From Candidatus Aenigmatarchaeota archaeon (GTDB lineage: Archaea; Aenigmatarchaeota; Aenigmatarchaeia; GW2011-AR5): a stretch of DNA of 24,000 nt. The stretch is from contig JACPAH010000020.1 in assembly GCA_016180925.1 (NCBI GenBank), positions 4,620 through 28,619 on the forward strand. Reading direction: 5' to 3'. The translations under genes were made by a program, and so were the position numbers. Under the pieces are notes generated by a model. It ran no database searches, had not been told where the DNA came from, and saw nothing but the letters and a program-made list of their open reading frames with translations. How positions within the stretch are numbered: position 1 is the stretch's first letter; each line of letters begins with the position of its first letter. Of the stretch, positions 2,980-23,540 are shown piece after piece.

Positions 2980-4581
2980 GTGAAGAAGGATATCGCAGAG
3001 ACTATAAAGTTCGAGAGCTTCAGGCCCGGGTCGTGCAAGGACGGCATTCTGGTGACGGTGAAGGACGGGACCGCCGTCGACTTCACGACGAAGAAGGAGA
3101 AGTACAGGGACGGCCTCTGCAAAAAGGCGACAGTGGAATTCGACAACGTCATTTACAGCAAGGCCGACAAGAAGAAGAATGCCACGTCAATAACCTATAT
3201 GATATATTACGGTAAGATATCCTCGGGCAACGGGACGTTCGGGAACGAAACCGGCGACGAATACGAGAACGGGCCTCCGGTCCTCCTGTCGGATGTGCCG
3301 GACGTCGTGATAGAGTACAACGGCTCTTATTCGCTCAACCTCTCTGAATACTTCTCGGACAGCGAGACGCTTGCATTCACTGCAGACGTTAACAGCAACA
3401 TTTCCATATCCATATCAGGCAGCGAGGCGACGCTGTCGCCTCTTTCATACCCTTATAACGGAACCCACACTGTAACTGCGAGCGACGGGGAATACACTGC
3501 GTCCAGCACTTTCAATGTCTATGCAAAGCCGCCTCCCGTCATCAACCAGACGGGACAGAACGAAGACAATGGCACTGCGCTTGACGAGAGTATATCGGTT
3601 CAAATTAGCCTGACGTATCCGGAGAACAACACGGTAATATTTGAGGGCAACCATACGTTCCTTTTCAGTGCATCAAACGGCACCTGCTCAGTCAGGCTGA
3701 GGAACCAGAGCGTCCAGAGCGAAGCTTATATTGAAAAAGGCTATTACTGGTGGGGCGTCTCATGCGAATACATGAACAGGACTTATCTTTCTGGAAAGAA
3801 TTATCTAGTTGTGATGCCCCGGACGACCATGAGTATAAATTACAGCAATGTCCAGGACCTTGCCAATGCGAGCAACATAAGCGTTGAGAACCCCTCCATA
3901 GGAAAGCTCGTCTTCGACGAGCCGATAGACCTTACGGTCGTGCAGGAGATGGAGAGGTACATAAACATATCAAGGAACCGCGTCGAGATAGATACGCAGT
4001 CAATGCAGCACCTGAACAAGAGTGCGATAGTTACTCTTTATAACATAGAGGCATCGAACCCTGTCATAAAGCAGGATGGCAGGCCATGCCCCGAGGATGT
4101 ATGCCGGATAATAAGCTACGGGAACGGCGTCCTCGTCTTCAGGGTTGGGCACTTTACCGTTTACGAGGTCGGCGACGCGCCCCAGCCTGAACCGGAGCCG
4201 CAGGCTGCACCCCAGGCTTCTGGAGGCGGCGGAAGCAGCGGGGGAAGCGGCAACTTCGCCCCGTCTCCGGAGAGCTCTTTCGGGGGAGCTGTCACAATCA
4301 CGAGAAAGAATCAGACGCAGGAGGCGGCTTCTCCCGAAGAAGTTGACGCGGAGGAACAGGCCGCGCCAACGGCGGCACAACCCTCCATGCCGCAGGAAGA
4401 GACCGTATACGAACAGCCGGTATCCGACACGAAAAATGAGAACTACATAACAGGGAGCGTGATACGATTATTTGTGGATAATGCGGTATATATTGTCGCT
4501 TTCTTTGTGGCACTCTTAGCCGGTATTGTTTTGATGAGGAAGAAAGGCATTAATGCTTCAAAAAGAAAGAAAAGACGATGA
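2980..4581 (+). CDS. C-terminally anchored, N-glycosylation-sequon-rich surface protein (true N-terminus lies upstream of the GTG at 2980)
   Basis: There are dozens of N-x-S/T sequons, a Pro/Glu/Gln/Gly/Ser linker (PQPEPEPQAAPQASGGGGSSGGSG), and a C-terminal TM helix followed by a basic tail (RKKGINASKRKKRR). The frame is open back to 2803 and encodes a signal-peptide-like LEYAAILAALLAASYLSFSLTGFLIA without any canonical start codon. Confidence 0.8.
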   Translation: MKKDIAETIKFESFRPGSCKDGILVTVKDGTAVDFTTKKEKYRDGLCKKATVEFDNVIYSKADKKKNATSITYMIYYGKISSGNGTFGNETGDEYENGPPVLLSDVPDVVIEYNGSYSLNLSEYFSDSETLAFTADVNSNISISISGSEATLSPLSYPYNGTHTVTASDGEYTASSTFNVYAKPPPVINQTGQNEDNGTALDESISVQISLTYPENNTVIFEGNHTFLFSASNGTCSVRLRNQSVQSEAYIEKGYYWWGVSCEYMNRTYLSGKNYLVVMPRTTMSINYSNVQDLANASNISVENPSIGKLVFDEPIDLTVVQEMERYINISRNRVEIDTQSMQHLNKSAIVTLYNIEASNPVIKQDGRPCPEDVCRIISYGNGVLVFRVGHFTVYEVGDAPQPEPEPQAAPQASGGGGSSGGSGNFAPSPESSFGGAVTITRKNQTQEAASPEEVDAEEQAAPTAAQPSMPQEETVYEQPVSDTKNENYITGSVIRLFVDNAVYIVAFFVALLAGIVLMRKKGINASKRKKRR

Positions 4582-9828: not shown

Positions 9829-10506
9829 TTAGTATCCTGTGAATTTTTCGCGCTTTATGCGGTTTTCTTCAATGTCTATATCCTTGAGAATCTGCACCGT
9901 CCCGTCCACCATAGCCGGCGGGCCGCAGACGTAAAAAACCGGCTGCCTTTTGAGGAATTCTCTTATCATATTTTCGTCAATACGTCCCTTCCTTCCGCTC
10001 CACTGGAGGCCTTCGGCTCTTGTTACCGTGTGGATAACCCTGAGATTTTTGTTTTCCTTTTGCAGTTCCTCAAGCTCTTTCCTGAAGGCTATGTCTTCCG
10101 GCGTCCTACTGGAGTAAAGGAGCGTTATCTTTGCAGGCAGTTTCTTTGCCGTTGCATATTTTATCATGGACATGAAAGGCGTCACGCCTATCCCGCCTGC
10201 CAGCATTACAGCATCCCTGTTCTCGTCAAGCAGGAAGACTCCGTACGGGCCCTTAATCTCGAAACTGTCGCCTATGGCGGCTGCATCCAGCGCCCTTTTG
10301 TAGTCGCTGTCTGTCATCTTCATAGTCAGGTCCATGTAATCCTTTTCAGTCGGCGAGGAGCATACGCTGAACGCCTCAGATTTCTCCCCGACTTTCAGCA
10401 TGACGAACTGGCCGGGCCTGAAGTCCATGCTGCCAGCGAAGCGGAAAGTCTTTATGTCGTGTGTTTCCTCTTTCTTTCTTGTGAGGACAGATATCATTGT
10501 TTGCAT
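9829..10506 (-). CDS. ferredoxin-NADP reductase family FAD/NAD(P)-binding oxidoreductase (PyrK-like, without a C-terminal Fe-S cysteine cluster)
   Basis: FRPGQFVMLK is a beta-barrel FAD-domain motif, MLAGGIGVTPFMSM an NAD(P)-binding motif, and VCGPPAMV lies near the C-terminus. Confidence 0.8.
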   Translation of the reverse strand: MQTMISVLTRKKEETHDIKTFRFAGSMDFRPGQFVMLKVGEKSEAFSVCSSPTEKDYMDLTMKMTDSDYKRALDAAAIGDSFEIKGPYGVFLLDENRDAVMLAGGIGVTPFMSMIKYATAKKLPAKITLLYSSRTPEDIAFRKELEELQKENKNLRVIHTVTRAEGLQWSGRKGRIDENMIREFLKRQPVFYVCGPPAMVDGTVQILKDIDIEENRIKREKFTGY

Positions 10507-10540
10507 ACTTTCAACTTACGGCAAATCTTTTTAATGTGAT

Positions 10541-10846
10541 ATGGTAAATCTGAATATGGCCAAGCGCGCTGAGATAGAAAAGACCCTGAAAATATTGAAA
10601 AGGGAGTCGCATAAATTCAATAATGCCGCCCTGACGGAGATAGGCCGCGAGACTCATGACGCTTTTCAGGTCCTCGTGTCGTGCATCATGAGCCTGCGCA
10701 CGCGCGATACCGTGACATACCCGACCGCGAAAAAGCTTTTTTCCACCGCCAAGACGCCGAAGCAGATAGCAAATATGCCCCTCCGCCGGCTTGAGGGCAT
10801 AATAAGGCCAGTGAACTTCTACAGAACTAAAATTTGTACCCATTAA
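10541..10846 (+). pseudogene. nth: 5' fragment of the host endonuclease III (nth); homology ends at FYRTK (10831), followed by 5 junk codons and TAA
   Basis: VLVSCIMSLRTRD...AKTPKQI...PVNFYRTK aligns with the N-terminal third of endonuclease III and with the island-encoded copy. Base composition switches to AT-rich at about 10830. Confidence 0.85.
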
Positions 10847-10954
10847 CTTTAACAAAAAGTTGTTTTTCTATATATAAAGCCATTATTATGGTACTAAATA
10901 TATTTTGTTTCAACTTCTTTTTGATTTTAAGAAATCTAAGAGCTAATTAACTAT

Positions 10955-11107
10955 ATGACCATATTTGACGGAAACGAAGAAATACCTGAGATTTGCCATT
11001 TTTGTGGTGAATTTGAGCAAAAGGTAGATTTAGCCACGTTGAACATGAAGATTTGGGGATGTGTTAATTCCAATTGTATATTGAATAAAACACCTGAATC
11101 AATGTGA
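10955..11107 (+). CDS. 50-aa zinc-ribbon protein (island)
   Basis: MTIFDGNEEIPEICHFCGEF...WGCVNSNCILNKTPESM has CxxC ... CxxxxC. It is below the ORF-track size cutoff, so I translated it by hand. Confidence 0.4.
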   Translation: MTIFDGNEEIPEICHFCGEFEQKVDLATLNMKIWGCVNSNCILNKTPESM

Positions 11108-11139
11108 GATAGGTGTTCATAATGCAATGAGGTATCGAA

Positions 11140-11352
11140 ATGAAAGATGAACTATCTAAACTGAATAATAAATTAAAAAAAAGATTCAAAAGAGAGGGCA
11201 TTACAGACCAGCAGGTTTCTGACGTCTATAATAGAAAAAGATGCGAAAAATGTCTAGGTAGAATTGATATTAAGACACAAAGAAAAGGCATGAATATTTG
11301 TAAATGCAAGACAAGAATGGTCGATGTGGAAGAAGAAGTTATAGAAGATTGA
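11140..11352 (+). CDS. 70-aa basic protein with a Cys4 motif (island)
   Basis: CEKC ... CKC in a Lys/Arg-rich context, with an acidic tail VDVEEEVIED. Confidence 0.45.
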   Translation: MKDELSKLNNKLKKRFKREGITDQQVSDVYNRKRCEKCLGRIDIKTQRKGMNICKCKTRMVDVEEEVIED

Positions 11353-11407
11353 TAATCGACTTTTTACAATAAAAAATAATATATTCAGAGTGCAATGAAG
11401 TGAAAAA

Positions 11408-11812
11408 ATGAAGAAAAACTCGACAGAAAGAAAGGCTATTGAAATTGTTAAAAAATTTGAACAGGAAAGAACGAATGAGATACCAGAAGAAATGCCAAAT
11501 GGACACGGCTATGACATAAAATCTGGAAATAGATTTATTGAAGTAAAAGGTACATATGGAGGTTTAGATAAGGTATGGGTTGTTTTACATCATACGTTTT
11601 TCAAGAAAATGTGGAATAGTGGAAGAAATTATTATATTTATTTCGTCTATAATTTAAATGACAAACCAAAAATGAAAATAATTAATCCAGAGAAAATATT
11701 TCCTAACTTGGAAATAGAACCTAAATACATTCTTCGTGGAAAAATCATAAGGGATAAAGAAATAGACGAAATCGATGTTTCTAAATTTTACACAGATTCT
11801 TCAGAAATATAA
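11408..11812 (+). CDS. PD-(D/E)xK nuclease-fold protein, DUF3883-like (island)
   Basis: GYDIKSGNRFIEVKGT matches the D...(E/Q)xK core as arranged in DUF3883/restriction-endonuclease-like domains, and an upstream acidic residue lies in the KKFEQER helix. Confidence 0.55.
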   Translation: MKKNSTERKAIEIVKKFEQERTNEIPEEMPNGHGYDIKSGNRFIEVKGTYGGLDKVWVVLHHTFFKKMWNSGRNYYIYFVYNLNDKPKMKIINPEKIFPNLEIEPKYILRGKIIRDKEIDEIDVSKFYTDSSEI

Positions 11813-11853
11813 ATTTTTGCCTGCATTGATGATATCATTATCAAGTACGGTGT

Positions 11854-12546
11854 TTATTTCTTCTTTATAGTAGGAATTTGATTGGTAAACTGCGAAGTAA
11901 CAACCTCATCATAATACTTACAATACTTTGTCACAGGACACTCCCAACAATGAGGTTTTACAGGCTTGCATATATTCTGTCCAAAGGTCACGAAAGTATC
12001 GTTAAAATCAGCCCAAAACCGTTTAGGTATAAGCTTTCTAAGTTCTTGTTCAGTTTGTTCTGGAGTCTTTGTTTCTATCCATCCTAATCTATTGGGTATC
12101 CTATGGCAGTGAATATCTATAGGCATACCTTCTTTACGATAGCCATAAACAAGGACGATATTAGCGGTTTTTCTGCCTACACCCTTTAATTTGAGCAATT
12201 CTTCCATAGTGTCCGGTACTTTGCCTTTATACTGCTCTAAAATGACCTTACTAATGTCCTTTATACGTCGTGCCTTAACCCGATAAAATCCGACAGGGAA
12301 TATGGCTTTCTCTATGCTTTTTACATTCAGCTTAACCATTTGTTGAGGTGTTTTGGCTAATTGGAATAGCCTATAGGAGGCTTTCTTAGTCGTTTCATCC
12401 CTTGTGCGTAAACTGAGCAAACAACTGATTAGGACTTCATAAGGGCTCTGGTTTTTATGACTTACTTGGGTAATTAGAGGTTCCTCAAATTTAGATACCA
12501 TTTTCTTGATAAGAGAAATGACAACAGGGATATGTTTTTTTCTCAT
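11854..12546 (-). CDS. nth: endonuclease III (HhH-GPD DNA glycosylase/AP lyase), complete, island-encoded
   Basis: SLRTRD is present. The HhH motif LLKLKGVGRKTANIVL includes the catalytic Lys, and IDIHCHRIPNRLG includes the catalytic Asp. The 4Fe-4S cluster loop CKPVKPHCWECPVTKYC is C-x6-C-x2-C-x5-C. Confidence 0.9.
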   Translation of the reverse strand: MRKKHIPVVISLIKKMVSKFEEPLITQVSHKNQSPYEVLISCLLSLRTRDETTKKASYRLFQLAKTPQQMVKLNVKSIEKAIFPVGFYRVKARRIKDISKVILEQYKGKVPDTMEELLKLKGVGRKTANIVLVYGYRKEGMPIDIHCHRIPNRLGWIETKTPEQTEQELRKLIPKRFWADFNDTFVTFGQNICKPVKPHCWECPVTKYCKYYDEVVTSQFTNQIPTIKKK

Positions 12547-12547
12547 G

Positions 12548-13537
12548 TTAAGACCTAGTTATTAAACTGCTTAATTTTTGCCTCTTTTCGGACGATGTAA
12601 AATTTATATGCTTTTGAAATTTAATGAAGTTTTCATAACCATAAATACCAAAATAAAACCTGTTTTTATTTCTTTTAATATATTTTCTGATGGGTGCAGC
12701 TTTAATGCCAAAATTTGATAATAGTTTTCTAATAGATTCTAAAATATCAGGATTATCTTGATATAATCTTATATGCCGAGATTTTATATCAACAGAAGAT
12801 TCATCATCATAAATTGCTCTAATCAATCCTGATTTAAATTCAAGTGATAAATCAAAAACTATGTCAGGAATATTTTTTCTTTTATTGTTAATGAATTTCC
12901 CGAAAATAAAAAATAATAAAATACCGGTAGATTTTGGATAAAATAATACGATATTTGCTTTACCTTTTATTTCGTCTAGATTTTCAATACGTTTTAACCA
13001 TGAAGATTTTTCTTCAAATTTCTTCTCTTTTTGCACCCATATTCTAGGTTTCACATTAAATAAATAATTCATGCTCTGAGAAAATTCATTTAATAGTTCT
13101 TTATTGCTATTTGAATAGGCGGGTTGTGATAATTTAGAATTTATCCATCCATCTCCTATAATATGACCTAATACTAATCCTAAATTTATGTCATCTTTAA
13201 TTGGAAAATTTGGTTTGATAAATTTTGTGAATCCCAACCCAAAAGATTTAATGGAAATTAAATTGTTTTCAACATCAATCCAACTATAGGATTTACTATT
13301 TTCTATAATAATTTTCAGTTTCGACATAGGCATATTACGACTTGAATAATACCATTGCTTTATCCCTATAGATTGGTTAAATTTTTTACTAAATATCATG
13401 TTAAGTTTTTCGGCTAAAATAGTATCTCTATGAGGATATTTTTCATTTGAAGCCGAATGTAGTAACTTCTTTATAAAATCTTTATTCAGACTCAAGTAAA
13501 AATCATTACTTTGTAAATTCTCCAATTGAATTTTCAT
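12548..13537 (-). CDS. double-motif LAGLIDADG homing endonuclease
   Basis: There are two LAGLIDADG-type motifs, LGLVLGHIIGDGW and GLIRAIYDDESSV, about 100 aa apart. The protein is AT-rich and Lys/Asn/Ile-rich. Its stop abuts the nth' start (TAAcATG at 12550-12544). Confidence 0.8.
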   Translation of the reverse strand: MKIQLENLQSNDFYLSLNKDFIKKLLHSASNEKYPHRDTILAEKLNMIFSKKFNQSIGIKQWYYSSRNMPMSKLKIIIENSKSYSWIDVENNLISIKSFGLGFTKFIKPNFPIKDDINLGLVLGHIIGDGWINSKLSQPAYSNSNKELLNEFSQSMNYLFNVKPRIWVQKEKKFEEKSSWLKRIENLDEIKGKANIVLFYPKSTGILLFFIFGKFINNKRKNIPDIVFDLSLEFKSGLIRAIYDDESSVDIKSRHIRLYQDNPDILESIRKLLSNFGIKAAPIRKYIKRNKNRFYFGIYGYENFIKFQKHINFTSSEKRQKLSSLITRS

Positions 13538-13615
13538 ATTTTTTAATAAATCACAAACTACTTAAATTTAACTCATGTCCAACGAATACTAAATATATTG
13601 TAACCTAAAATATAG

Positions 13616-13783
13616 ATGAAGCGCGTCGTGCCGAAGCGCTACTGGAGGGACATCAACGACATATTTGTGCGATTTGGCCAGAGCATATGCCTGCCGCGAA
13701 ACCCGAAATGCAATGCATGTCCTGTTAATAAATACTGCGTGTATTACAGGAACGAATATAAGCCGCCAGCTCCAAAGAAATAG
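13616..13783 (+). pseudogene. nth: 3' fragment of the host endonuclease III (Fe-S cluster loop)
   Basis: Hand translation gives MKRVVPKRYWRDINDIFVRFGQSICLPRNPKCNACPVNKYCVYYRNEYKPPAPKK. It aligns with KLIPKRFWADFNDTFVTFGQNICKPVKPHCWECPVTKYC of the island copy. It is GC-rich like the 5' fragment. Confidence 0.85.
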
Positions 13784-13784
13784 G

Positions 13785-13973
13785 ATGAAAGACCTCGCGA
13801 AATACTACAGGCTTCTATCTATTCTGATACCGCTGTATATTGCCATAGGATTCGTGGCTGAAAGGAACGCAGTGTTCAATTATTTCAACGCCGGGCTAGC
13901 TGTTTTTTGGGTGATAATGGTTTTTGCGTGGTTCAAGTTTAGGAAATCGGCGCGAACTTTCAGGAAAAAGTAA
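13785..13973 (+). CDS. 62-aa two-helix membrane protein
   Basis: MKDLAKYYRLLSILIPLYIAIGFVAERNAVFNYFNAGLAVFWVIMVFAWFKFRK. The longer 13665 start in the ORF track would overlap the nth 3' fragment in another frame. Confidence 0.5.
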   Translation: MKDLAKYYRLLSILIPLYIAIGFVAERNAVFNYFNAGLAVFWVIMVFAWFKFRKSARTFRKK

Positions 13974-14029
13974 AAGATTTCTTTAAATATAGGCTACGAT
14001 ATATATATCTCTACGCTATTTTAAGGAAA

Positions 14030-14188
14030 TTGGCGGATTGGTGTATTCTCTTGGCAAGAAAGAAAAAAAGCAAGTATAAGAAGCAGTTCATCGAGGTCTG
14101 GAAATGCAAGGGCTGCAGCTTCGAATGGTCATACAAGACCTTCAGATGCCCCCTGTGCTCAACGGCTGAGATGTTGAAAATTGTCTGA
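14030..14188 (+). CDS. 52-aa basic zinc-ribbon protein (TTG start tentative)
   Basis: Hand translation gives ...LARKKKSKYKKQFIEVWKCKGCSFEWSYKTFRCPLCSTAEMLKIV with CxxC...CxxC. A TATA-like ATATATATAT lies about 25 nt upstream. Confidence 0.4.
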   Translation: MADWCILLARKKKSKYKKQFIEVWKCKGCSFEWSYKTFRCPLCSTAEMLKIV

Positions 14189-16354: not shown

Positions 16355-16461
16355 TTAGTCTTTTTCGCGTTGTATTCCTTGCCGCAGAAGCCGCAGAATA
16401 TCATGTGGCGAGTCTTAATCAGACGGCCGTCCTTGCAGCTGTTGCACCTTTTTATTACCAT
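16345..16461 (-). CDS. 38-aa zinc-ribbon protein
   Basis: Hand translation gives MVIKRCNSCKDGRLIKTRHMIFCGFCGKEYNAKKTKWQ with CxxC...CxxC. It is coupled to the downstream ORF. Confidence 0.45.
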   Translation of the reverse strand: MVIKRCNSCKDGRLIKTRHMIFCGFCGKEYNAKKTKWQ

Positions 16462-16474
16462 TTGACACACACCC

Positions 16475-16642
16475 TTACTCGTTCTTTCTGCCGTCCAGCC
16501 CGGACATGAGCATCTCCTTGCTTATCTCTCCAGAGAGCAAAGCTTTCTGAGATCTTGAAGGAATTTCATTCCTTCCAAGACTGCCTTCGGCATACTCATG
16601 CCCGTGTTTGGCCCTCTCATCCCTGTTCTGGCGGCTTTTCAT
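16475..16642 (-). CDS. 55-aa hypothetical ORF containing repeat copy C1
   Basis: MKSRQNRDERAKHGHEYAEGSLGRNEIPSRSQKALLSGEISKEMLMSGLDGRKNE. The IPSRSQKALLS part is encoded by the two-hairpin repeat, so coding status is doubtful. Confidence 0.3.
   Translation of the reverse strand: MKSRQNRDERAKHGHEYAEGSLGRNEIPSRSQKALLSGEISKEMLMSGLDGRKNE
16531..16575 (-). repeat. two-hairpin repeat, copy C1
   Basis: On the plus strand: CAGAGAGC-AAA-GCTTTCTG (16531-16549), linker AGATCTT, GAAGGAAT-TTC-ATTCCTTC (16557-16575). Confidence 0.8.
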
Positions 16643-17058
16643 CTGTATTATATGCCCGGAGTGCCTTAAATAGTTTACTACTTATTAGTAGTTATTTTAT
16701 GATATATATTTCAGCGTGATAATAATCATATACAAATGGCATGGGAAGAAGGTGGGAACACGTTAATTGAAGCCTTTAAATAATTTATCTTGGACTTAGT
16801 TAACAAAATATAAAGGCAGCAAGAGGGGTGAAAAGCGTGAAAATAAGATTCTATGAAGAAGAAGATGACGACAGCGGCTGGGACGATGACGACGACGCCG
16901 GTGACGAAGATGAAGGTGGCGGCGGAGAAGAGGAATAACCCTTTGTTTCGGTATTTTTTGTTTTAATTACCAAATTCCTTCAAAAACCTCACTTTTGAGG
17001 ATTTCAAAGAAATGTAATTTCTTTGAAGATTTCTGTGATTTTATGCATCTGAATATGT

Positions 17059-17150
17059 TATAGTGCTCCAAGAAAACATTCAGGATATTAGTTTTCTTGG
17101 GCACTATATGTGAAGCAAATAAACATGTCGGGATTCTTTATTTGCTTCAC
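17059..17150 (-). other. two adjacent long hairpins immediately 3' of aIF2-gamma (terminator or small structured RNA candidate)
   Basis: 17059-17077 pairs with 17091-17108 (18 bp, one bulged T, 13-nt loop). 17110-17123 pairs with 17137-17150 (14 bp, 13-nt loop). Confidence 0.5.
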
Positions 17151-17171
17151 TATAAGAATATTTATGCTCAT

Positions 17172-18407
17172 CTAGAGGATTTCGCCCCATCCTATGAGAT
17201 GCCACCTGCCGCCGACCTGCTTTGATAATGCAACCTTGCTTCCGGCCCGAGCGCAGACAGGTATCTTCAGGCTTACATTTACGCTCTTTCCGGAGGAAGT
17301 CACCAGGCCGACAGTTTTTGATATGGCTACCGTCATCATGAGAACGTCTCCCGTCCTTATCGGCTCCACTTTCTTTACGCCTTCCACTCCTATTATATGG
17401 TCGAACGGATGGACCTTGAGGTTCAGCTGATCCATGTTGGACGGCAGGTTCTTTCCTGCGATGCTTCCGGTCATCGAGTCTCCTCTGGTGAGCGACGGGT
17501 CGAGCTCCGTCTGCATCGCGACAAGACCACCGGGCGACGCCTCGTCTACCCTGCCTGTCTGGAACATCTCTGTTATCTTTGTCGTTATGGGGCTCCATTT
17601 GTCGTTTATCTTGACCCCGGGCTTTATCTCTATCTCGTCGCCCGTCTTTATTGTGCCTTCTATCAGCGAACCGCCTATGACGCCGCCTTTGAGCTCGCCG
17701 GGCGGCGTGCCGGGCTTGTTGATGTCGAACGACCTTGCCACATAGAAAATAGGGCTTTTTGTCGCATCCCTCTTCGGGCTCGGCATGAGCCTTTCTATCT
17801 CCTCTATGAGCATGTCGATGTTGATGTTGTTTATGGCGCTGATTGGTATTATCGGGGCGTTCTCCGCGACCGTCCCTTTCACGAATTTCTTTATTTCGTC
17901 ATGGCTCTCGATCGCCCTCTTTTCCGGGACCAGGTCTATCTTGTTCTGGACTATTATTATGTTCTTTATTCCCGCTATATCCAGCGCCTTGAGATGCTCG
18001 GCTGTCTGGGGCTGGGGGCATTTCTCGTCCGCGGATATCAGGAGAAGCGCTCCGTCCATCAGCGCCGCGCCCGACAGGACGGTCGCCATCAGCGTCTCGT
18101 GGCCGGGGGCGTCCACGAAGCTTACCGCCCTCTTCGGCCTGCAGTCGCCGAAGCATGACATGCATTTCCTGGCGTTGCCGTATTTCCTGCATTTGTCGCA
18201 GTAGTAGAACGTGACGTCGGCGTAGCCCAGCCTTATCGTGATGCCCCTTTTCATTTCCTCGCTGTGGGTGTCCGTCCACTTGCCCGTCAGGGTCTGTGCC
18301 AGGCTGGTCTTCCCGTGGTCCACGTGCCCGACCATTCCTATGTTTATCTCTGGCTTCATTTCATCTTCGTTCTGTTTCATCTCTGTTTTCTTCGGGAAAG
18401 AAACCAC
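17172..18407 (-). CDS. eif2g: translation initiation factor aIF2 gamma subunit
   Basis: G1 motif GHVDHGKTSL, DAPGHE and NKID are present. The zinc knuckle is CDKCRKYGNARKCMSCFGDC. An alternative start is the ATG at 18380 (MKQNEDE...). Confidence 0.95.
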   Translation of the reverse strand: MVSFPKKTEMKQNEDEMKPEINIGMVGHVDHGKTSLAQTLTGKWTDTHSEEMKRGITIRLGYADVTFYYCDKCRKYGNARKCMSCFGDCRPKRAVSFVDAPGHETLMATVLSGAALMDGALLLISADEKCPQPQTAEHLKALDIAGIKNIIIVQNKIDLVPEKRAIESHDEIKKFVKGTVAENAPIIPISAINNINIDMLIEEIERLMPSPKRDATKSPIFYVARSFDINKPGTPPGELKGGVIGGSLIEGTIKTGDEIEIKPGVKINDKWSPITTKITEMFQTGRVDEASPGGLVAMQTELDPSLTRGDSMTGSIAGKNLPSNMDQLNLKVHPFDHIIGVEGVKKVEPIRTGDVLMMTVAISKTVGLVTSSGKSVNVSLKIPVCARAGSKVALSKQVGGRWHLIGWGEIL

Positions 18408-19330: not shown

Positions 19331-19599
19331 TATACATCCCTTTCTTTCCGAAAGAAAGGTCTGTATCAACCCCAAAGAAAGGGCCTACAGACCTTCTTGA
19401 AAAAACCTTATAAGGAAGCAGCGAATCTCTTCATTGCTTCCCAGTTTTTTCAGCCGGGCTAATGCATTTGTTGGAGATAAAGCTTATAAATCCGCTGCAC
19501 TAGCGCAGCGGATTTGTGTGCAGAAAGCATAGATTTCTGACATCTCAAAAGAGCAAAGCTCTTTTGCAGACATATAAAATTTCCATACATCTTAACACC

Positions 19600-21036
19600 A
19601 TGAAAGCCCGCGTAGACGAAAAGTGGCCGTTCCACTTCTCCGAAATCCTGCTGAAGGGCAACCCTGAAAGCAGCGTCGCCGTGTGCACCCTGTGGACGCT
19701 GAAGGAGAAGTTCCTGCCGCTTGAAAACTTCGCCCTGATAGGCAACATGTATTACGGCGAGGGCGTGAGTTATCTTCTCCGCGGCATCCTCTCCAACCCC
19801 AACATACGCTATCTGGTGCTGTGCGGCGTTGACATATCGAATAGTGGCGAAGCCCTTGTTTCCATGTTCAAAAATGGCATCGACGACAACCACATGATAA
19901 TCGGGACCGGCGTTGAAGTGCACAAGGAAATTCCCAGAGATGCGATAGAGGACGTCAGGAAGCACGTTTTTCTCGTGGATATGCGCGGCGCAATAGACGG
20001 CGATAAAGTTGCGTCAAAAATAAGGGAGCTTGAGCCGCTGGACGCCTTTGGCGAGCCCAGGACGTTTCCCATGCCCGAGATTAAAAAAGTCGGCACGTTC
20101 CCGTCCGAGAAGACGGGATTCATAGTGCGCGAGGGGAAGATAGCCGACGCCTGGCTGCGCATCGTCAGGCACGTGATGAAATTTGGCAAGATAAAGAAGA
20201 GCCAGCAGGCGTCGGACATGCGAGAAGTCGTTAACCTGGTCTCGGTGATAGAAGACGAGAACCCGTCGGACCCGTATCTGCCTGAATTCATGCCGTTCGG
20301 CATCCGGGAGATAGAGAATTATTATCCGCAAATCATGACTCCCAAGGGCATCCCGGGCACAAAGTATACATACGGCCAGAAACTGCGGGACTTTCATGGC
20401 GTTAACCAGGTCGAATACATCATAGAGGACCTTAAGCGCACGCCATATTCCCGGCGCGCCGTGGCTGTGACATGGAACCCCGAAACGGACACGCGGAATG
20501 ACAATCCCCCCTGCTGGATAGTTGTGCAGTGCATCATTCAGGACCCGTATCTTTACCTGACATGCTATATCAGGACCAATGACATGTTCGCGGCGTGGCC
20601 CCTGAATGCGTTCGGCCTGCGCAAATTGCAGCAGGAAATAGCGGCCTCTCTTGGCGTCAAACTAGGGCCTTTGATAGTAGTTTCATGCAGCGCCCATATA
20701 TACAGCCACGACTGGAACAAGGCAAAAGAGCTGATAGATAAATACGGGCCGTCCCGGAAGTTCGTTGCGGACCCGCGGGGAAACTTCGTCATAAGGCTGG
20801 ACAGGGAGAAACAGGAACTCATTGTTACGCATTATTCGCCTGAGCAGAAGCAGCTGCAGGAATTCGCGGGGAAGACGGCCGTGGAGCTTTACAGGAAGAT
20901 ACTGGATGCGGACGCAATCTCCATGCCGGGGCACATGATGGACTTGGGCTGCGAACTCCAGAAAGCCGATACCGCCCTCAGGCAGGGTATAGTCTACGAG
21001 CAGGACAAGCCACTGGACTTCGGGAAGAAAGTTTGA
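19600..21036 (+). CDS. thyA: thymidylate synthase (ThyA-type core) with an N-terminal MtrA-like/pterin-associated domain and a C-terminal DUF4346-like domain
   Basis: ThyA core: RRAVAVTWNPETD, PPCW (catalytic Cys context), YIRTNDMFAAWPLNAFGL. C-terminal: RGNFVIRLDREKQELIVTHY...GHMMDLGCELQKADTAL...YEQDKPL, which resembles DUF4346. The ATG at 19600 is preferred over the 19516 extension, which crosses promoter hairpins. Confidence 0.8.
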   Translation: MKARVDEKWPFHFSEILLKGNPESSVAVCTLWTLKEKFLPLENFALIGNMYYGEGVSYLLRGILSNPNIRYLVLCGVDISNSGEALVSMFKNGIDDNHMIIGTGVEVHKEIPRDAIEDVRKHVFLVDMRGAIDGDKVASKIRELEPLDAFGEPRTFPMPEIKKVGTFPSEKTGFIVREGKIADAWLRIVRHVMKFGKIKKSQQASDMREVVNLVSVIEDENPSDPYLPEFMPFGIREIENYYPQIMTPKGIPGTKYTYGQKLRDFHGVNQVEYIIEDLKRTPYSRRAVAVTWNPETDTRNDNPPCWIVVQCIIQDPYLYLTCYIRTNDMFAAWPLNAFGLRKLQQEIAASLGVKLGPLIVVSCSAHIYSHDWNKAKELIDKYGPSRKFVADPRGNFVIRLDREKQELIVTHYSPEQKQLQEFAGKTAVELYRKILDADAISMPGHMMDLGCELQKADTALRQGIVYEQDKPLDFGKKV

Positions 21037-21679: not shown

Positions 21680-21892
21680 TCAGGGGAACCTGTGGTCCCT
21701 TCCTCGTATGTATTGTCTGGCTGTATCAAGCTCACGTCCTTCGAGCGGGGTTCCGTCAGGCCTTTCGAGGCGGACATCGCCTCCGAGGCTGTAGCAAACC
21801 TCGACAGTCCTGGTATAGCCGGACCTCAATCTTCCGCTGTCAGTAAGCTCTACAGACATGCGCATTCCCGAAAGCGGCTCCATTCTTGACAT
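21680..21892 (-). CDS. hypothetical 70-aa protein
   Basis: The ATG at 21892 is preceded by TTTTTATAG about 25-30 nt upstream on the minus strand. An 87-aa ORF on the plus strand overlaps it, so strand assignment is tentative. Confidence 0.35.
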   Translation of the reverse strand: MSRMEPLSGMRMSVELTDSGRLRSGYTRTVEVCYSLGGDVRLERPDGTPLEGRELDTARQYIRGRDHRFP

Positions 21893-21986
21893 GGTAAGGA
21901 TATCCAAAATAACTATAAAAAGACGGATTTGGTTTTTGCGATGCCGGCTTCTGCCAAGACCATTCTTTACCAAAGAAACATATTTA

Positions 21987-22025
21987 AAGATATCTAACTA
22001 AGATATCTTATAGAGATATCAATGG
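21987..22025 (+). promoter_or_regulatory. three tandem 13-bp units, each containing the palindrome GATATC, overlapping the start of the 22022 ORF
   Basis: GATATC occurs at 21989, 22002 and 22015 (exact 13-bp spacing). The units are AAGATATCTAACT / AAGATATCTTATA / GAGATATCAATGG. A TATA-like ATATTTAAAG lies at 21979-21988. Confidence 0.6.
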
Positions 22026-22264
22026 CTTCATACAGGAGTATTCCGATAAGGGCTATAACAGAAAGAGCATCAAGGGAAGCCGAGGAATTGGGTTTGAATC
22101 TTGATGATATCGAAAGGATGATGAATGAAAGCTACGAATGCGCTGAAAGCAGGCGGAAAGAAGGCATTGAAGAAAGGTGCGTAAGAAAAGATAGTAAAAT
22201 ACTCAAAATCGTCATCAAGTTAAAAACAAGCAAAAGCGGGTTTGAGTATCTGCAAAGAGTATGA
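22022..22264 (+). CDS. 80-aa hypothetical protein (weak DUF4258/toxin-like resemblance)
   Basis: IRAITERASREAEELGLNLDDIERMMNE...KILKIVIKLKT loosely resembles the 'H-A-x-x-R-M-x-E-R-G-I' helix plus beta-strand layout of DUF4258. The resemblance is weak. Confidence 0.45.
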   Translation: MASYRSIPIRAITERASREAEELGLNLDDIERMMNESYECAESRRKEGIEERCVRKDSKILKIVIKLKTSKSGFEYLQRV

Positions 22265-22375
22265 ATAATGTCTTTCAAGTCACCATACTCTTTGAGATCA
22301 AAGCATTCGTATCAAAAATATTAAGAATGCTTATGATTGGAGAGTTCGCGAAATTGCATATGTGAGGTGAGAGTG

Positions 22376-22702
22376 ATGTCAAAAACAATATACGAGGATG
22401 AACTGGAATGCGAATGCGGCGGCACCATGAAGCCCAGGCTCTTTAATGTAGAAGGCTTCGCAGTCAGGGGATGGCAGTGCGAGAAATGCAGCAGAATCGA
22501 TTACTCGGACGACATGAATCTGGTGCTTACCGTGAAAAAATTCAAAAAAGATGGGGCTTCTCTGAAGCTCAGGAGCGTCGGCGATACGATTGTGGTCACA
22601 ATCCCGAAGGAAATCCGCGATGCGCTGGAGCTGAAAGCGGGGGAAGACGTGAAAATGTACCCGTTGTCAAAGAAGAAGATTATGGTGGAAATTGAGAAAT
22701 AA
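22376..22702 (+). CDS. zinc-ribbon + AbrB/SpoVT (MazE-like) DNA-binding protein
   Basis: CECGG...CEKC zinc ribbon, then VGDTIVVTIPKEIRDALELKAGEDVKMY, typical of the swapped-hairpin AbrB/MazE fold. The ATG at 22376 is preceded by GGTGAGAGTG. Confidence 0.65.
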   Translation: MSKTIYEDELECECGGTMKPRLFNVEGFAVRGWQCEKCSRIDYSDDMNLVLTVKKFKKDGASLKLRSVGDTIVVTIPKEIRDALELKAGEDVKMYPLSKKKIMVEIEK

Positions 22703-22721
22703 AATAATAATTAAAATTAAA

Positions 22722-22757
22722 TTTTCTACAGGCCCCACTTGGGCTCCTGCTTGCATT
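22722..22757 (-). repeat. orphan duplicate of the aIF5B 3' end (encodes KCKQEPKWGL-stop)
   Basis: 22733-22754 matches 23549-23570 at 21 of 22 positions. In the minus frame it reads ...KQEPKWGL-TAG versus KRKQEPKWGL-TGA at the true gene end. All differences within the codons are synonymous. Confidence 0.75.
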
Positions 22758-22767
22758 TGCTTATAAT

Positions 22768-23100
22768 TTAAACTTCTACTTTCTTCTTGATTTTTTCTAT
22801 TTCTTCTTCCGCAAATGCCGAGGCAAGCTTGAAACTTAATTCCATGAGAACTCTTACTTTAGATTTTTCTTTGTTGAGTTTGTACATATCAGCCCTGCCT
22901 ATGGTTCTTGTCTTTGTTATTATTTTTTTGTCTATCAGTTCTTCCCATATCTTGTCAAGGGTGATTCTGGATACGCCGGTTTCTTCCGCAACCTGGCTTT
23001 TTGAGTAGTCGAAGCTGTCATAAGTCAAAAAGAAATCTAATACCTTCACGACAGGGGTTTCTCCGAATGTCTCCACAAATATCGAGTTTTTTGCTTCCAT
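22768..23100 (-). CDS. winged-helix transcriptional regulator
   Basis: YSKSQVAEETGVSRITLDKIWEELIDKKIITKTRTIGRADMYKLN has an HTH plus wing layout, followed by a C-terminal coiled tail. Confidence 0.65.
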   Translation of the reverse strand: MEAKNSIFVETFGETPVVKVLDFFLTYDSFDYSKSQVAEETGVSRITLDKIWEELIDKKIITKTRTIGRADMYKLNKEKSKVRVLMELSFKLASAFAEEEIEKIKKKVEV

Positions 23101-23131
23101 TTTATATCAACCTAATCTTTATGATTATTCA

Positions 23132-23206
23132 CATCATAATGAACTAGTCGCATAGTTTCAATGGATTTCATGTTCACTTTGGATTGGAACTAGTTCACTT
23201 ATGATG
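23132..23206. promoter_or_regulatory. imperfect 17/18-bp inverted repeat and 10-bp palindrome GAACTAGTTC in the divergent promoter region
   Basis: CATCATAATGAACTAGT (23132-23148) versus ACTAGTTCACTTATGATG (23189-23206), which is the reverse complement with one extra C. GAACTAGTTC lies at 23187-23196. Confidence 0.5.
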
Positions 23207-23285
23207 TTATTAGTTGTTAAATTTAGTATTTAAATAATTATGCATTTAATGTATAATAATTATACAATACAGAGGTCGTGTGTTT

Positions 23286-23540
23286 ATGGATGTTAAAGAT
23301 GACAGGGAAATAGAGCGTATCTTGCTGAAAAAGCTTCATACCATGGGATGCTGGGGCACCAGGCATACTTCTGAAAGAAACCTTCCAAAAGGATTTCCGT
23401 CTCATGTCAGAAAACGCGTTTTGGAAATTGCCGAAGAATTGCGCAAAAAGGGATTTCTTGTCAAATTCCCGACAAGCCATGATAACCAGTGGTATCTTAA
23501 CTGGAATTTCAAGAAGGAAATCGAGGAAAAAATTAAATAA
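23286..23540 (+). CDS. 84-aa hypothetical protein, possible small wHTH
   Basis: MDVKDDREIERILLKKLHTMG...VRKRVLEIAEELRKKGFLVKFPT. It is divergent from the wHTH regulator. Confidence 0.45.
   Translation: MDVKDDREIERILLKKLHTMGCWGTRHTSERNLPKGFPSHVRKRVLEIAEELRKKGFLVKFPTSHDNQWYLNWNFKKEIEEKIK

What the first reader, a model, noticed from the sequence alone, without database searches (positions are those of the whole stretch)
10541..13783. Host endonuclease III gene gutted and replaced by an AT-rich cassette that brings its own nth coupled to a LAGLIDADG homing endonuclease: candidate natural 'cleave-and-rescue' element
Seen: the GC-rich host nth is present as a 5' piece (10541-10831, ...SLRTRD...PVNFYRTK) and a 3' piece (13616-13783, KRVVPKRYW...C-x6-C-x2-C-x5-C). 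The pieces are on the same strand and collinear. The ~78 codons in between, which carry the HhH motif and the catalytic Lys and Asp, are missing. In their place is 2.8 kb of very AT-rich DNA. On the opposite strand this DNA encodes a full-length endonuclease III with every catalytic and Fe-S motif. By eye, roughly half of its aligned residues are identical to the host fragments, so it is a foreign homologue, not a duplicate. Immediately upstream in the same operon is a double-motif LAGLIDADG endonuclease. Established knowledge: LAGLIDADG enzymes home into conserved regions of essential or conserved genes, usually inside introns or inteins that preserve host gene function. Free-standing homing endonucleases in phages spread together with cleavage-immune alleles of their target. 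Inference: this element appears to destroy the resident nth and supply a divergent, presumably cleavage-immune nth as a rescue copy. That would make loss of the element costly and copy the cassette into naive nth alleles. I do not know of a described archaeal element with this intron-less, intein-less gene-replacement logic. The inverted orientation of nth' and the 234-bp deletion of host sequence do not fit simple homologous recombination or classical homing.
Basis: partly seen in the sequence, partly recalled or inferred. Interest (0 to 1): 0.9.

Follow-up and report, generated by a model that had tools for sequence, protein, structure and literature searches.

The report
Homing endonuclease gene invading archaeal nth
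A selfish DNA-cutting gene that specialises in the DNA-repair gene nth has broken that gene in a tiny groundwater archaeon and left behind a complete foreign nth, an unusual product of a widespread, apparently undescribed family of such elements.

Summary
The host nth is split into 10541-10831 and 13617-13783. Related genomes carry it intact in the same gene neighbourhood, and 235 bp are replaced by a 2,785-bp AT-rich block (10832-13616). Three independent assemblies span both junctions, so it is not a chimera.

The block encodes an intact double-motif LAGLIDADG endonuclease, a complete foreign nth' and three small cargo genes.

The new evidence is that this endonuclease belongs to a family tied to nth:
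- In 55 of 55 non-identical metagenomic loci, a homologue lies tail-to-tail against the 3' end of a full-length nth.
- In 16 of 55, a displaced nth 3' fragment sits just upstream of the endonuclease gene.

So the family normally homes into the 3' part of nth, probably carrying a replacement 3' end. Mobile endonuclease ORFs in fungal mitochondria do the same.

In the window, the endonuclease gene and the displaced host 3' piece are in the canonical position. The rest is not: the middle of the gene is deleted and a whole inverted donor nth' plus cargo is present. This most likely reflects one aberrant homing event between lineages too divergent for normal repair. It is the only such case among 56 loci, so an evolved "cleave-and-rescue" cassette is possible but unsupported.

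The parts
10541..10831 (+). 5' piece of the resident (host-type) nth, codons 1-97. The ORF runs on into the island for 4 more codons, to a stop at 10846.
   Evidence: PF00730 positions 1-55. 81% aa identity to the intact nth of L103 and L104. Nucleotide homology ends at 10831. dN/dS of 0.18-0.23 against the intact relatives shows no pseudogene decay.
10832..13616 (.). AT-rich foreign block of 2,785 nt (GC 0.296, against 0.49-0.52 in the flanks). It replaces 235 nt of nth.
   Evidence: Identical in independent Logan assemblies.
10955..11107 (+). Cargo ORF of 50 aa with CxxC...CxxxxC (zinc-ribbon-like). Function unknown.
   Evidence: No match in Pfam, PHROGs, PADLOC or NCBIfam. No relative in any fetched locus.
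11140..11352 (+). Cargo ORF of 70 aa with a CxxC...CxC zinc-ribbon-like motif. Function unknown.
   Evidence: Only weak PADLOC matches to the zinc-finger region of Cas12 (E about 1e-3).
11408..11812 (+). Cargo ORF of 134 aa with a NOV_C (PF13020/DUF3883) domain, also found at the C-terminus of the candidate defence protein TmtA.
   Evidence: Pfam E 1e-15. PADLOC TmtA C-terminus, E 2e-12. Not related to the Mrr_cat genes next to the endonuclease gene or nth in L012 and L112.
11854..12546 (-). nth': a complete foreign endonuclease III of 230 aa. It has the HhH motif with Lys (GVGRKTAN), the Asp (PIDIHCH) and the C-x6-C-x2-C-x5-C cluster. Its ATG lies 1 nt after the endonuclease stop codon.
   Evidence: Pfam and NCBIfam TIGR01083. 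Closest relatives are 70-75% identical nth genes of other Aenigmatarchaeota. 35% and 56% identity to the two host pieces.
12548..13537 (-). Free-standing monomeric double-LAGLIDADG homing endonuclease gene of 329 aa: an N-terminal domain of about 110 aa plus two LAGLIDADG domains (motifs LGLVLGHIIGDG and GLIRAIYDDES).
   Evidence: PF14528. Family-invariant G128-D129-G130 and D244-D245-E246. AlphaFold2 pLDDT 93.6, and Foldseek matches to the TliVMA, PI-SceI and PI-PfuI intein endonucleases and to I-DmoI. Homologues are always next to nth.
13538..13616 (-). Upstream (promoter) region of the endonuclease gene, running to the right junction. The A of the junction-created ATG is at 13616.
13617..13783 (+). 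Displaced 3' piece of the resident nth (about the last 55 codons, including the Fe-S loop). It occupies the same position, upstream of and divergent from the endonuclease gene, as the nth 3' remnants in 16 other loci.
   Evidence: PF10576. 78% aa identity to L103 and L104. Homology resumes at 13617. Canonical remnants.

Best explanation
The block is the footprint of an nth-specific, free-standing LAGLIDADG homing endonuclease gene (HEG) that entered the endonuclease III gene of a GC-rich Aenigmarchaeota archaeon.

How the family normally behaves. It lives at the 3' end of nth, on the opposite strand, with the two stop codons back-to-back or overlapping. The inferred mechanism has three steps:
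1. The enzyme cuts HEG-less nth alleles in their 3' half.
2. Repair copies the HEG together with a replacement nth 3' end.
3. The native 3' end is pushed out as a dead remnant just upstream of the HEG.

The two nth 3' copies flanking the HEG would then give homology on both sides. That would let the element move between genomes that share nothing but nth.

What happened here. Relative to the host gene, the HEG (minus strand) and the displaced host 3' piece (13617-13783) are exactly canonical. The other side is not. The donor was an AT-rich Aenigmarchaeote whose nth is only about 50% identical to the host's. I infer that the upstream break end found no usable homology. It was resected to codon 97 and sealed illegitimately after about 1.7 kb of extra donor DNA had been taken in. 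That DNA comprises three small genes and the donor's whole nth'. nth' now lies inverted, directly behind the HEG.

Consequences. The host's own nth is dead, because its HhH motif, Lys and Asp are deleted. Nth function now depends on the foreign copy. Because nth' coexists with an intact HEG, it is presumably not cleaved.

What is shown and what is inferred.
- Shown: the anatomy, the empty sites, the family-wide linkage to nth and the remnants, the fold and motifs of the enzyme, and that the disruption is recent.
- Inferred: cleavage of nth, the position of the cut, immunity of nth', and the repair path, including how nth' came to be inverted.
For: Anatomy and empty sites:
- Anatomy and junctions.
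- Intact nth in the same synteny in L103 and L104.
- Both junctions present in independent assemblies.

Linkage of the family to nth:
- Seven look-ups of homologues with 41-59% identity all showed the HEG convergent with a full-length nth, while the other neighbours varied.
- In the metagenome scan, 55 of 55 evaluable non-identical loci with at least 35% identity have a convergent nth within 265 nt. 16 of 55 have an nth 3' remnant just upstream of the HEG. None of 15 more distant relatives has either.
- The flanks are chromosomal housekeeping genes, including the archaeal/eukaryotic-type MCM helicase.

Evidence that the HEG is mobile and foreign:
- In L012 the HEG (GC 0.29) and the last ~180 nt of nth (0.28-0.32) are AT-rich, while most of the rest of nth (0.40-0.58, with one 60-nt dip to 0.33) and the flanking genes are GC-richer. 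This suggests the replacement 3' end travels with the HEG.
- HEG-linked and displaced 3' ends differ systematically. The residue after the first cluster Cys differs in 10 of 10 pairs. The next residue is Pro in 8 of 34 linked copies against 13 of 14 displaced or empty copies (Fisher p = 1e-5, not corrected for relatedness).

The enzyme looks active:
- Invariant catalytic acidic residues.
- AlphaFold2 pLDDT 93.6, with Foldseek hits to homing endonucleases.

The event is recent:
- The host fragments have no stops or frameshifts. Their dN/dS of 0.18-0.23 equals that between the intact genes.
- The island's composition has not drifted towards the host's.

A junction between the HEG and nth':
- The last 4 residues of the window's HEG depart from the family consensus. 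Canonical loci have the nth stop codon exactly at that place.

A plausible donor pool:
- The closest HEG homologue (59% identity, canonical arrangement with a remnant) comes from the same set of sequencing runs, on an AT-rich contig.
Against: - No cleavage data exist, and the target site is not mapped.
- Only one locus (L012, weakly also L102) shows by composition that the nth 3' end is part of the mobile unit. Protein best-hit analysis of L012 did not separate the N and C parts.
- The inverted orientation of nth', with its ATG 1 nt after the HEG stop codon, is not predicted by simple copying from a canonical donor. It needs an extra inversion or template switch, or a donor that already had this arrangement.
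- No donor genome with the cargo genes was found.
- The tight HEG-nth' spacing could indicate selection for an operon, which is the rival reading.
- The motif KPVKP in nth' is the norm in its clade, so it is not evidence of an immunity mutation.
Confidence: 0.65

Rival explanations
1. An evolved 'cleave-and-rescue / cleave-and-replace' cassette. The HEG and a complete, cleavage-immune nth' form a selected operon that spreads as a unit. It destroys resident nth alleles and makes the host depend on the cassette.
For: - The HEG stop codon and the nth' start codon are 1 nt apart on the same strand.
- The host nth lacks all its catalytic parts, while nth' is complete.
- A whole-gene rescue would remove the need for homology with the 5' part of the target. 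That would help jumps between lineages whose nth genes are about 50% identical.
Against: - This is the only such arrangement among 56 non-identical loci. All 55 others have the nth convergent with the HEG.
- The closest HEG relatives (57-59% identity) are canonical.
- The cargo genes recur nowhere.
- The HEG's altered last four residues look like a rearrangement scar.
- From general knowledge, nth is usually dispensable in the laboratory, which weakens any addiction effect.
Confidence: 0.15
2. Two separate events. First, a canonical homing event produced a hybrid but intact host nth, the HEG and the displaced 3' piece. Later, an unrelated replacement swapped nth codons 98 to the end for a donor fragment carrying the cargo and nth'.
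For: - The HEG and the displaced piece are canonical relative to the host gene.
- The right end of the replaced segment coincides with where the nth stop codon would overlap the HEG tail, and the HEG tail is altered there.
Against: - It requires two independent acquisitions of equally AT-rich DNA at the same spot.
- No trace remains of the hybrid nth.
- No mechanism is evident for the second event.
Confidence: 0.12
3. A generic genomic island that landed in nth by chance, with the LAGLIDADG gene as a passive passenger or inactive relic.
For: - The island carries unrelated cargo, including a domain related to a candidate defence protein.
- No cleavage data exist.
Against: - Homologues are adjacent to nth in 55 of 55 loci, with nth remnants on the far side in 16. 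This makes a chance landing in nth untenable.
- There is no integrase, no tRNA and no terminal repeat at the borders.
- The catalytic residues of the enzyme are conserved.
Confidence: 0.04
4. The LAGLIDADG protein is a domesticated partner or regulator of Nth (as WhiA is a domesticated LAGLIDADG protein), not a mobile element.
For: - The gene pair is strictly conserved.
- WhiA appears among the distant structural matches.
- Extra N-terminal and, in some members, C-terminal putative DNA-binding domains are present.
Against: - The convergent orientation means the two genes are not co-transcribed.
- Close relatives of the host lack the gene altogether (L103, L104; also L112).
- Its composition is foreign to the host in L012 and in the window.
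- Duplicated nth 3' remnants flank it.
- The catalytic acidic residues are retained.
Confidence: 0.03
5. An assembly or binning chimera joining AT-rich and GC-rich organisms.
For: A sharp compositional step at both borders.
Against: - Both flanks are collinear parts of a single gene.
- Three independent single-run assemblies span both junctions at 100% identity.
Confidence: 0.01

Closest known systems
Mobile endonuclease ORFs (mORFs) of fungal mitochondria that create gene hybrids: Allomyces macrogynus atp6, and Glomus sp. atp6/atp9/cox2/nad3 (PMC3630166, read)
   Same: - An intron-less, intein-less LAGLIDADG (or GIY-YIG) endonuclease gene is inserted into the 3' part of a conserved protein-coding gene.
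- A foreign C-terminal segment comes in with it.
- The native C-terminus is left as a non-functional duplicate beyond the endonuclease ORF.
- The native remnant resembles close relatives, while the inserted copy is divergent.
The canonical nth elements found here have the same layout, although the replaced 3' end is shown by composition in only one locus.
   Different: - These elements are in archaeal chromosomes, not organelles.
- The target is a DNA-repair gene.
- The endonuclease gene is antisense to its target, tail-to-tail, rather than in phase with it.
- In this window no hybrid gene was formed: the middle of the gene was deleted, and a whole foreign homologue plus three cargo genes came in.
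Free-standing homing endonuclease genes of T-even phages (Seg and Mob families): 'intronless homing' (PMC2988022 and PMC2790892, abstracts seen)
   Same: - The endonuclease gene sits beside its target gene rather than inside an intron or intein.
- A double-strand break in genomes lacking it leads to gene conversion that carries the endonuclease gene and flanking DNA.
- Flanking DNA, here nth' and the cargo, can hitch-hike.
   Different: - The enzyme class differs: phage enzymes are GIY-YIG or HNH, and this one is LAGLIDADG.
- Phage homing relies on synteny on both sides. Here the flanking duplicate of the target's 3' end would supply the second homology arm.
- Transfer appears to cross deep lineage boundaries.
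Synthetic Cleave and Rescue (ClvR) gene-drive elements (PMC6442612)
   Same: A nuclease that disrupts the endogenous copy of a gene is tightly linked to a divergent copy of the same gene that still works. In the window, the HEG lies next to a complete nth', and the resident nth is destroyed.
   Different: - ClvR acts in trans on an essential gene and spreads by killing non-carriers in a sexual diploid. It does not copy itself into the target.
- Here the element sits inside the target locus, the host is a haploid archaeon, nth is probably not essential, and the arrangement has been seen only once.
Archaeal intron- and intein-encoded LAGLIDADG enzymes (I-DmoI, PI-PfuI, the TliVMA intein endonuclease)
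   Same: - The best structural matches of the predicted model (Foldseek E 5e-9 to 1e-6; TM-score normalised to I-DmoI 0.6-0.7).
- NCBIfam hits fall on the intein parts of intein-containing proteins.
- It is monomeric with two LAGLIDADG motifs.
   Different: - There is no Hint (splicing) domain, and the ORF is not in frame with a host protein.
- No intron RNA was detected.
- It has an extra N-terminal domain of about 110 aa.
- Sequence similarity to any solved structure is marginal (E about 0.6).

Membership tests
LAGLIDADG homing endonuclease (monomeric, double-motif) | Two LAGLIDADG motifs, each ending in a conserved acidic catalytic residue | tested here: met
   PF14528 with two matched stretches. 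GHIIGDG (D129) and YDDES (D244, D245, E246) are invariant in 12 homologues.
LAGLIDADG homing endonuclease (monomeric, double-motif) | Pseudo-dimeric alpha-beta-beta-alpha-beta-beta-alpha fold | tested here: met
   AlphaFold2 pLDDT 93.6 and pTM 0.90. Foldseek probability 1.00 to the TliVMA, PI-SceI and PI-PfuI intein endonucleases and to I-DmoI.
LAGLIDADG homing endonuclease (monomeric, double-motif) | Site-specific cleavage of the allele that lacks the element | not testable with these tools
   Needs expression of the protein and a cleavage assay on L103/L104-type nth.
LAGLIDADG homing endonuclease (monomeric, double-motif) | Presence/absence polymorphism at one conserved genomic site | tested here: met
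   Close relatives of the host have empty sites (L103, L104). The gene is present at the nth 3' end in 55 of 55 loci, with otherwise unrelated neighbours.
Intein- or intron-borne homing endonuclease | ORF embedded in frame within a Hint/splicing domain, or inside a self-splicing intron of the target gene | tested here: not met
   The gene has its own start and stop codons and lies on the strand opposite to the host nth. No Hint domain was found. No Rfam intron was found in 10300-14100.
mORF-type gene-hybrid element (fungal mitochondria; PMC3630166) | Endonuclease ORF inserted in the 3' part of a conserved protein-coding gene | tested here: met
   The window and 16 loci have nth 3' sequence on both sides of the endonuclease gene.
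mORF-type gene-hybrid element (fungal mitochondria; PMC3630166) | Displaced native C-terminal remnant beyond the endonuclease ORF, resembling close relatives of the host | tested here: met
   The piece at 13617-13783 is 78% identical (aa) to L103 and L104 and is GC-rich like the host.
mORF-type gene-hybrid element (fungal mitochondria; PMC3630166) | Foreign C-terminus fused in frame to the native 5' part, giving an intact hybrid gene | tested here: not met
   In the window the native 5' part ends at codon 97 plus 4 junk codons, and the foreign nth' is a separate, complete, inverted gene. In canonical relatives the feature is plausible: L012 shows a GC step about 180 nt before the nth stop codon.
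mORF-type gene-hybrid element (fungal mitochondria; PMC3630166) | Endonuclease ORF on the same strand as, and often in phase with, the target gene | tested here: not met
   It is always antisense and tail-to-tail.
Phage-type free-standing homing endonuclease gene (intronless homing) | Endonuclease gene lies next to its target gene, not within an intron or intein | tested here: met
Phage-type free-standing homing endonuclease gene (intronless homing) | The linked target allele carries polymorphisms that prevent cleavage | tested here: inconclusive
   Linked and displaced 3' ends differ systematically in the Fe-S loop codons. The cleavage site is unknown, and the test is not corrected for relatedness. 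The motif in nth' is normal for its clade.
Cleave-and-Rescue (ClvR)-like toxin-antidote element | Nuclease tightly linked to a functional, divergent copy of the gene it destroys | tested here: met
   Met structurally: the HEG and a complete nth' are adjacent, and the resident nth is gutted. Function and immunity of nth' were not tested.
Cleave-and-Rescue (ClvR)-like toxin-antidote element | The target gene is essential, so loss of the element or non-inheritance is lethal | not testable with these tools
   Only 24 kb of the genome is available, so other glycosylases cannot be excluded. From general knowledge, nth mutants of model organisms are viable.
Cleave-and-Rescue (ClvR)-like toxin-antidote element | The nuclease + rescue unit recurs as one transmissible module | tested here: not met
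   None of 55 other loci shows a co-directional endonuclease gene and nth, or the cargo genes.

The most novel reading that the evidence does not exclude
The co-directional HEG-nth' pair is not an accident. It would be a selected 'cleave-and-replace' module, a derivative of the nth-homing family that carries a whole immune target gene instead of only its 3' end. It would then need homology on one side only, or none. That would let it invade nth alleles as little as 50% identical and make the recipient depend on the element's own repair gene. This would be a natural prokaryotic counterpart of synthetic Cleave-and-Rescue drives.
Probability: 0.15. Interest if true: 0.85.

Novelty: new variant of a known kind. 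Interest (0 to 1): 0.62.

Why it matters
- It reveals a sizeable and, as far as I could find, undescribed family of free-standing LAGLIDADG homing endonuclease genes in archaeal chromosomes. About 30 clusters at 50% identity have strong full-length matches, and 61 clusters reach E <= 1e-30. All loci examined are tied to one target, the base-excision repair gene nth.
- The family appears to have reached the same solution as fungal mitochondrial mobile ORFs: bring a replacement 3' end for the gene you cut and leave the old one behind. If so, this trick is a general route to intron-less, intein-less homing, not an organelle oddity.
- The window shows what happens when such an element crosses into a lineage too divergent for clean repair. 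A host gene is destroyed and replaced by a foreign orthologue plus unrelated cargo. That is homing-endonuclease-driven orthologous gene replacement and horizontal transfer, in small-genome groundwater archaea.
- The enzymes would be new meganuclease scaffolds with a conserved natural target that remains to be mapped.
- Pairs of linked and displaced 3' ends offer a ready-made data set for studying how immunity to a homing endonuclease evolves.

Tried and rejected
- An 'immunity mutation' in nth'. nth' has ICKPVKP where its closest relative (L112) and the host have ICLPRNP. I rejected this as evidence because KPVKP/KPVRP is the norm among 40 nth' relatives.
- Exact-protein look-ups of host neighbours, to find an empty site. 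They returned only the same strain. The empty sites came from the genome-collection scan.
- A viral origin. No relative of the endonuclease was found in 2.9 million viral contigs. PHROGs gave only an intein-like hit.
- A sequence search against solved structures gave only marginal hits (E about 0.6). Structure prediction plus Foldseek was needed.
- Identity of the cargo. The 50-aa and 70-aa proteins match nothing convincing. No cargo homologue lies near any other family member. The NOV_C protein is unrelated to the Mrr_cat genes beside L012 and L112.
- Terminal repeats. No repeat lies at the borders. A 13-nt exact direct repeat sits 60 nt and 17 nt inside the two ends. By my own estimate, about 0.4 such pairs are expected by chance in 2.8 kb of AT-rich DNA, so I left it unexplained.
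- Chimerism of L012 nth by protein best hits. The N and C parts have similar best hits. Only composition shows the step.
- An inverted repeat that could have flipped nth'. None is evident around 11813-11853 or 12547-12600.
- Literature. No paper links LAGLIDADG or homing endonucleases with nth, or describes such elements in DPANN archaea.

Full report
**1. The observation**

The window is archaeal chromosome with GC about 0.5. It carries eIF2-gamma, ribosomal protein S6e, metK and pyrG. NCBI names the source a Candidatus Aenigmarchaeota MAG.

Between about 10.8 and 13.6 kb, GC drops to 0.25-0.38. The genes in and around this stretch are:

| Coordinates | Strand | What it is | Evidence |
|---|---|---|---|
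| 10541-10846 | + | First half of an HhH-GPD glycosylase (host nth, 5' piece) | |
| 10955-11107 | + | 50-aa zinc-ribbon-like ORF | |
| 11140-11352 | + | 70-aa zinc-ribbon-like ORF | |
| 11408-11812 | + | 134-aa NOV_C/PF13020 protein | |
| 11854-12546 | - | Complete endonuclease III (nth'), 230 aa | |
| 12548-13537 | - | 329-aa LAGLIDADG_3 protein | |
| 13616-13783 | + | Endonuclease III Fe-S motif (host nth, 3' piece) | |

- The stop codon of the LAGLIDADG gene lies 1 nt before the nth' start codon.
- nth' is 35% identical to the host N piece and 56% identical to the host C piece.

**2. Empty sites and junctions**

A scan of one genome per GTDB species, using a profile of the host N piece, found two close relatives with an uninterrupted 228-codon host-type nth in the same neighbourhood:

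- **L103:** nth, the 62-aa gene, the Zn-ribbon gene and pyrG. pyrG is 91.6% identical at the protein level.
- **L104**, a Ca. Aenigmatarchaeota groundwater MAG: metK (88% identical), the oxidoreductase gene and nth.

Nucleotide alignment places the left junction at 10831/10832 and the right junction at 13616/13617. So 235 nt of nth, carrying the HhH motif, the catalytic Lys and the Asp, are replaced by 2,785 nt.

Independent single-run Logan assemblies are 100% identical to the window across the island. Three of them span both junctions. The only difference anywhere is a 3-nt indel near 5929. The structure is real, not a chimera.

The two host fragments contain no stops or frameshifts. Their dN/dS against the intact relatives is 0.18-0.23, the same as between the two intact genes. 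The disruption is therefore recent.

**3. The endonuclease**

- The protein has two LAGLIDADG motifs. Their acidic residues are invariant across 12 homologues.
- AlphaFold2 gives a confident model (pLDDT 93.6).
- The C-terminal ~210 residues match intein-type and intron-type LAGLIDADG homing endonucleases: TliVMA, PI-SceI, PI-PfuI and I-DmoI.
- There is no Hint domain and no intron RNA in the region. It is a free-standing gene with an extra N-terminal domain of about 110 residues.

**4. The decisive context: a family tied to nth**

Look-ups of seven homologues (41-59% identity) all showed the same picture. The endonuclease gene is convergent with a full-length nth immediately downstream, while the other neighbours differ from locus to locus.

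A metagenome scan then gave 80 more loci. I mapped nth around them with tblastn:

- Among non-identical loci with at least 35% identity, 55 of 55 evaluable have a convergent nth within 265 nt of the endonuclease gene's end. Stop codons are often back-to-back or overlapping.
- 16 of 55 also have a short nth 3' fragment just upstream of the endonuclease gene, on the nth strand. These fragments start between about residue 141 and residue 190.
- None of 15 more distant relatives (under 35% identity) has a convergent nth.
- The flanks are ordinary chromosomal genes, including the archaeal/eukaryotic-type MCM helicase.
- No relative occurs in viral contigs.

The endonuclease gene behaves as foreign DNA. 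In L012 it has GC 0.29, against 0.43-0.55 for its neighbours. The last ~180 nt of the adjacent nth share the low GC.

Endonuclease-linked nth 3' ends resemble one another and differ systematically from the displaced fragments in the Fe-S loop codons:

- The residue after the first cluster Cys differs in 10 of 10 pairs.
- The following residue is Pro in 8 of 34 linked copies, against 13 of 14 displaced or empty copies.
- This test is not corrected for relatedness.

The simplest reading is a homing endonuclease gene that targets the 3' half of nth. It travels with a replacement 3' end and leaves the native end behind.

This is the layout described for mobile endonuclease ORFs of fungal mitochondria, in Allomyces atp6 and in Glomus atp6, atp9, cox2 and nad3 (PMC3630166). 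It is related to intronless homing in T-even phages (PMC2988022, PMC2790892). I found no paper describing it for nth or in DPANN archaea.

The family is modest in size. 61 clusters at 50% identity reach E <= 1e-30, within a broader set of 734 at E <= 1e-10.

**5. How the window fits the family**

Relative to the host nth (plus strand), two features are exactly canonical:

- The endonuclease gene is on the minus strand.
- It is followed by the displaced host 3' piece (13617-13783), 79 nt upstream of its start codon.

What is not canonical lies between host codon 97 and the endonuclease tail. A canonical element would have the rest of nth there. Instead there are three cargo genes and a complete, inverted nth'.

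- **Origin of nth'.** It is of Aenigmatarchaeota type, 70-75% identical to nth genes of other members of the phylum.
- **Possible donor pool.** The closest endonuclease homologue is canonical, has a remnant, sits on an AT-rich contig, and comes from the same set of sequencing runs.
- **A rearrangement scar.** The window's endonuclease differs from the family consensus in its last four residues. That is exactly where canonical loci have the nth stop codon, so a rearrangement junction lies there.

I infer an aberrant homing event across a wide divergence, in these steps:

1. The host nth was cut.
2. The downstream end was joined next to the endonuclease gene's upstream region.
3. The upstream end found no usable homology, because the donor nth is only about 50% identical. 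It was resected to codon 97.
4. It was sealed illegitimately after extra donor DNA had been incorporated.

The inversion of nth' needs an additional template switch or inversion, or a donor that already had this order. I could not resolve which. A two-step history, with canonical homing followed by a second replacement, is a weaker alternative.

**6.

Structurally the locus does pair a nuclease with a complete, divergent copy of the gene it has apparently destroyed. The 1-nt spacing between the two genes is operon-like.

Against an evolved cassette:

- This arrangement is the only one of its kind among 56 loci.
- The cargo genes recur nowhere.
- The family's normal strategy appears to be 3'-end replacement.
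- Immunity of nth' is only a logical inference from its coexistence with an intact endonuclease gene. The one sequence feature I considered as an immunity mutation is normal for its clade.

I rate the evolved-cassette reading at about 0.15.

**7. Verdict**

- The element is a new variant of a known kind: a free-standing homing endonuclease gene that repairs or replaces its target gene. It is found in a new host domain and against a new target.
- The family-level finding is arguably more interesting than the single locus.
- Cleavage specificity, the cut site, immunity of nth' and the repair pathway all remain to be shown experimentally.

Noticed in passing
L083-L099 (metagenome loci; e.g. L087 6001-6831, L097 6001-6780): More distant relatives of the endonuclease (26-31% identity) have no nth nearby (0 of 15). 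They presumably home into other genes. The representative search suggests a broad superfamily (734 clusters at E <= 1e-10).
   Followed up: partly
L065 2974-3576 (+) and 6001-6978 (+): One 35%-identical homologue has no convergent nth. Instead a full-length nth lies 2.4 kb upstream on the same strand. This is a second non-canonical arrangement, different from the window's.
   Followed up: no
L023, L030, L037, L055, L069, L070, L082 (nth next to the endonuclease gene): A subgroup of the family sits next to nth genes that lack the four-cysteine Fe-S loop (C-termini such as ...NWILVRFGQTY-SK-KN..LD.IK). These loci also have displaced 3' remnants. The endonuclease family therefore appears to follow two structurally different nth subfamilies.
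   Followed up: partly
P0008, P0011, P0012 (L102, L016, L018): Some family members carry an extra C-terminal extension of about 75 aa, ending ...G.YLW.L(K). It looks like an added DNA-binding (winged-helix-like) module. The window's protein lacks it.
   Followed up: no
window 10892-10904 and 13587-13599: An exact 13-nt direct repeat, TACTAAATATATT, occurs only twice in the window. The copies lie 60 nt inside the left border and 17 nt inside the right border of the island. Each is about 50-60 nt upstream of the first gene at that end. It may be chance in AT-rich DNA or a promoter/TATA-like element. It is not a border repeat.
   Followed up: partly
L112 1963-3412, compared with L012 2864-4951: L112 holds the closest nth' relative (75% identity) and has no endonuclease gene. 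A 117-aa lipoprotein-like gene overlaps its nth 3' end, and an Mrr_cat gene follows. In L012 an Mrr_cat gene that is 60% identical lies on the other side of the endonuclease gene. These look like occupied and unoccupied versions of a similar neighbourhood.
   Followed up: partly
window 2980-4581 (+): A 533-aa protein in this archaeon matches the Nup98-type autopeptidase S59 domain (PF04096, E 3e-7, just above the gathering score).
   Followed up: no
window 19516-21036 (+): A 506-aa fusion protein combines an MtrA-like domain, a thymidylate synthase domain and the pterin-binding DUF4346 domain.
   Followed up: no
window 14030-14188 (+): A 52-aa zinc-ribbon ORF upstream of pyrG is 94% identical in L103, far more conserved than the adjacent 62-aa membrane ORF (53%). 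It is weakly similar to an 80-aa ORF in L012.
   Followed up: no
window 16400-17200 and 21800-23400: Further patches of lower GC (0.34-0.44) hold only small ORFs, including an AbrB/SpoVT-like one at 22337-22702 and a winged-helix-like one at 22768-23100. I did not examine them for mobility.
   Followed up: no
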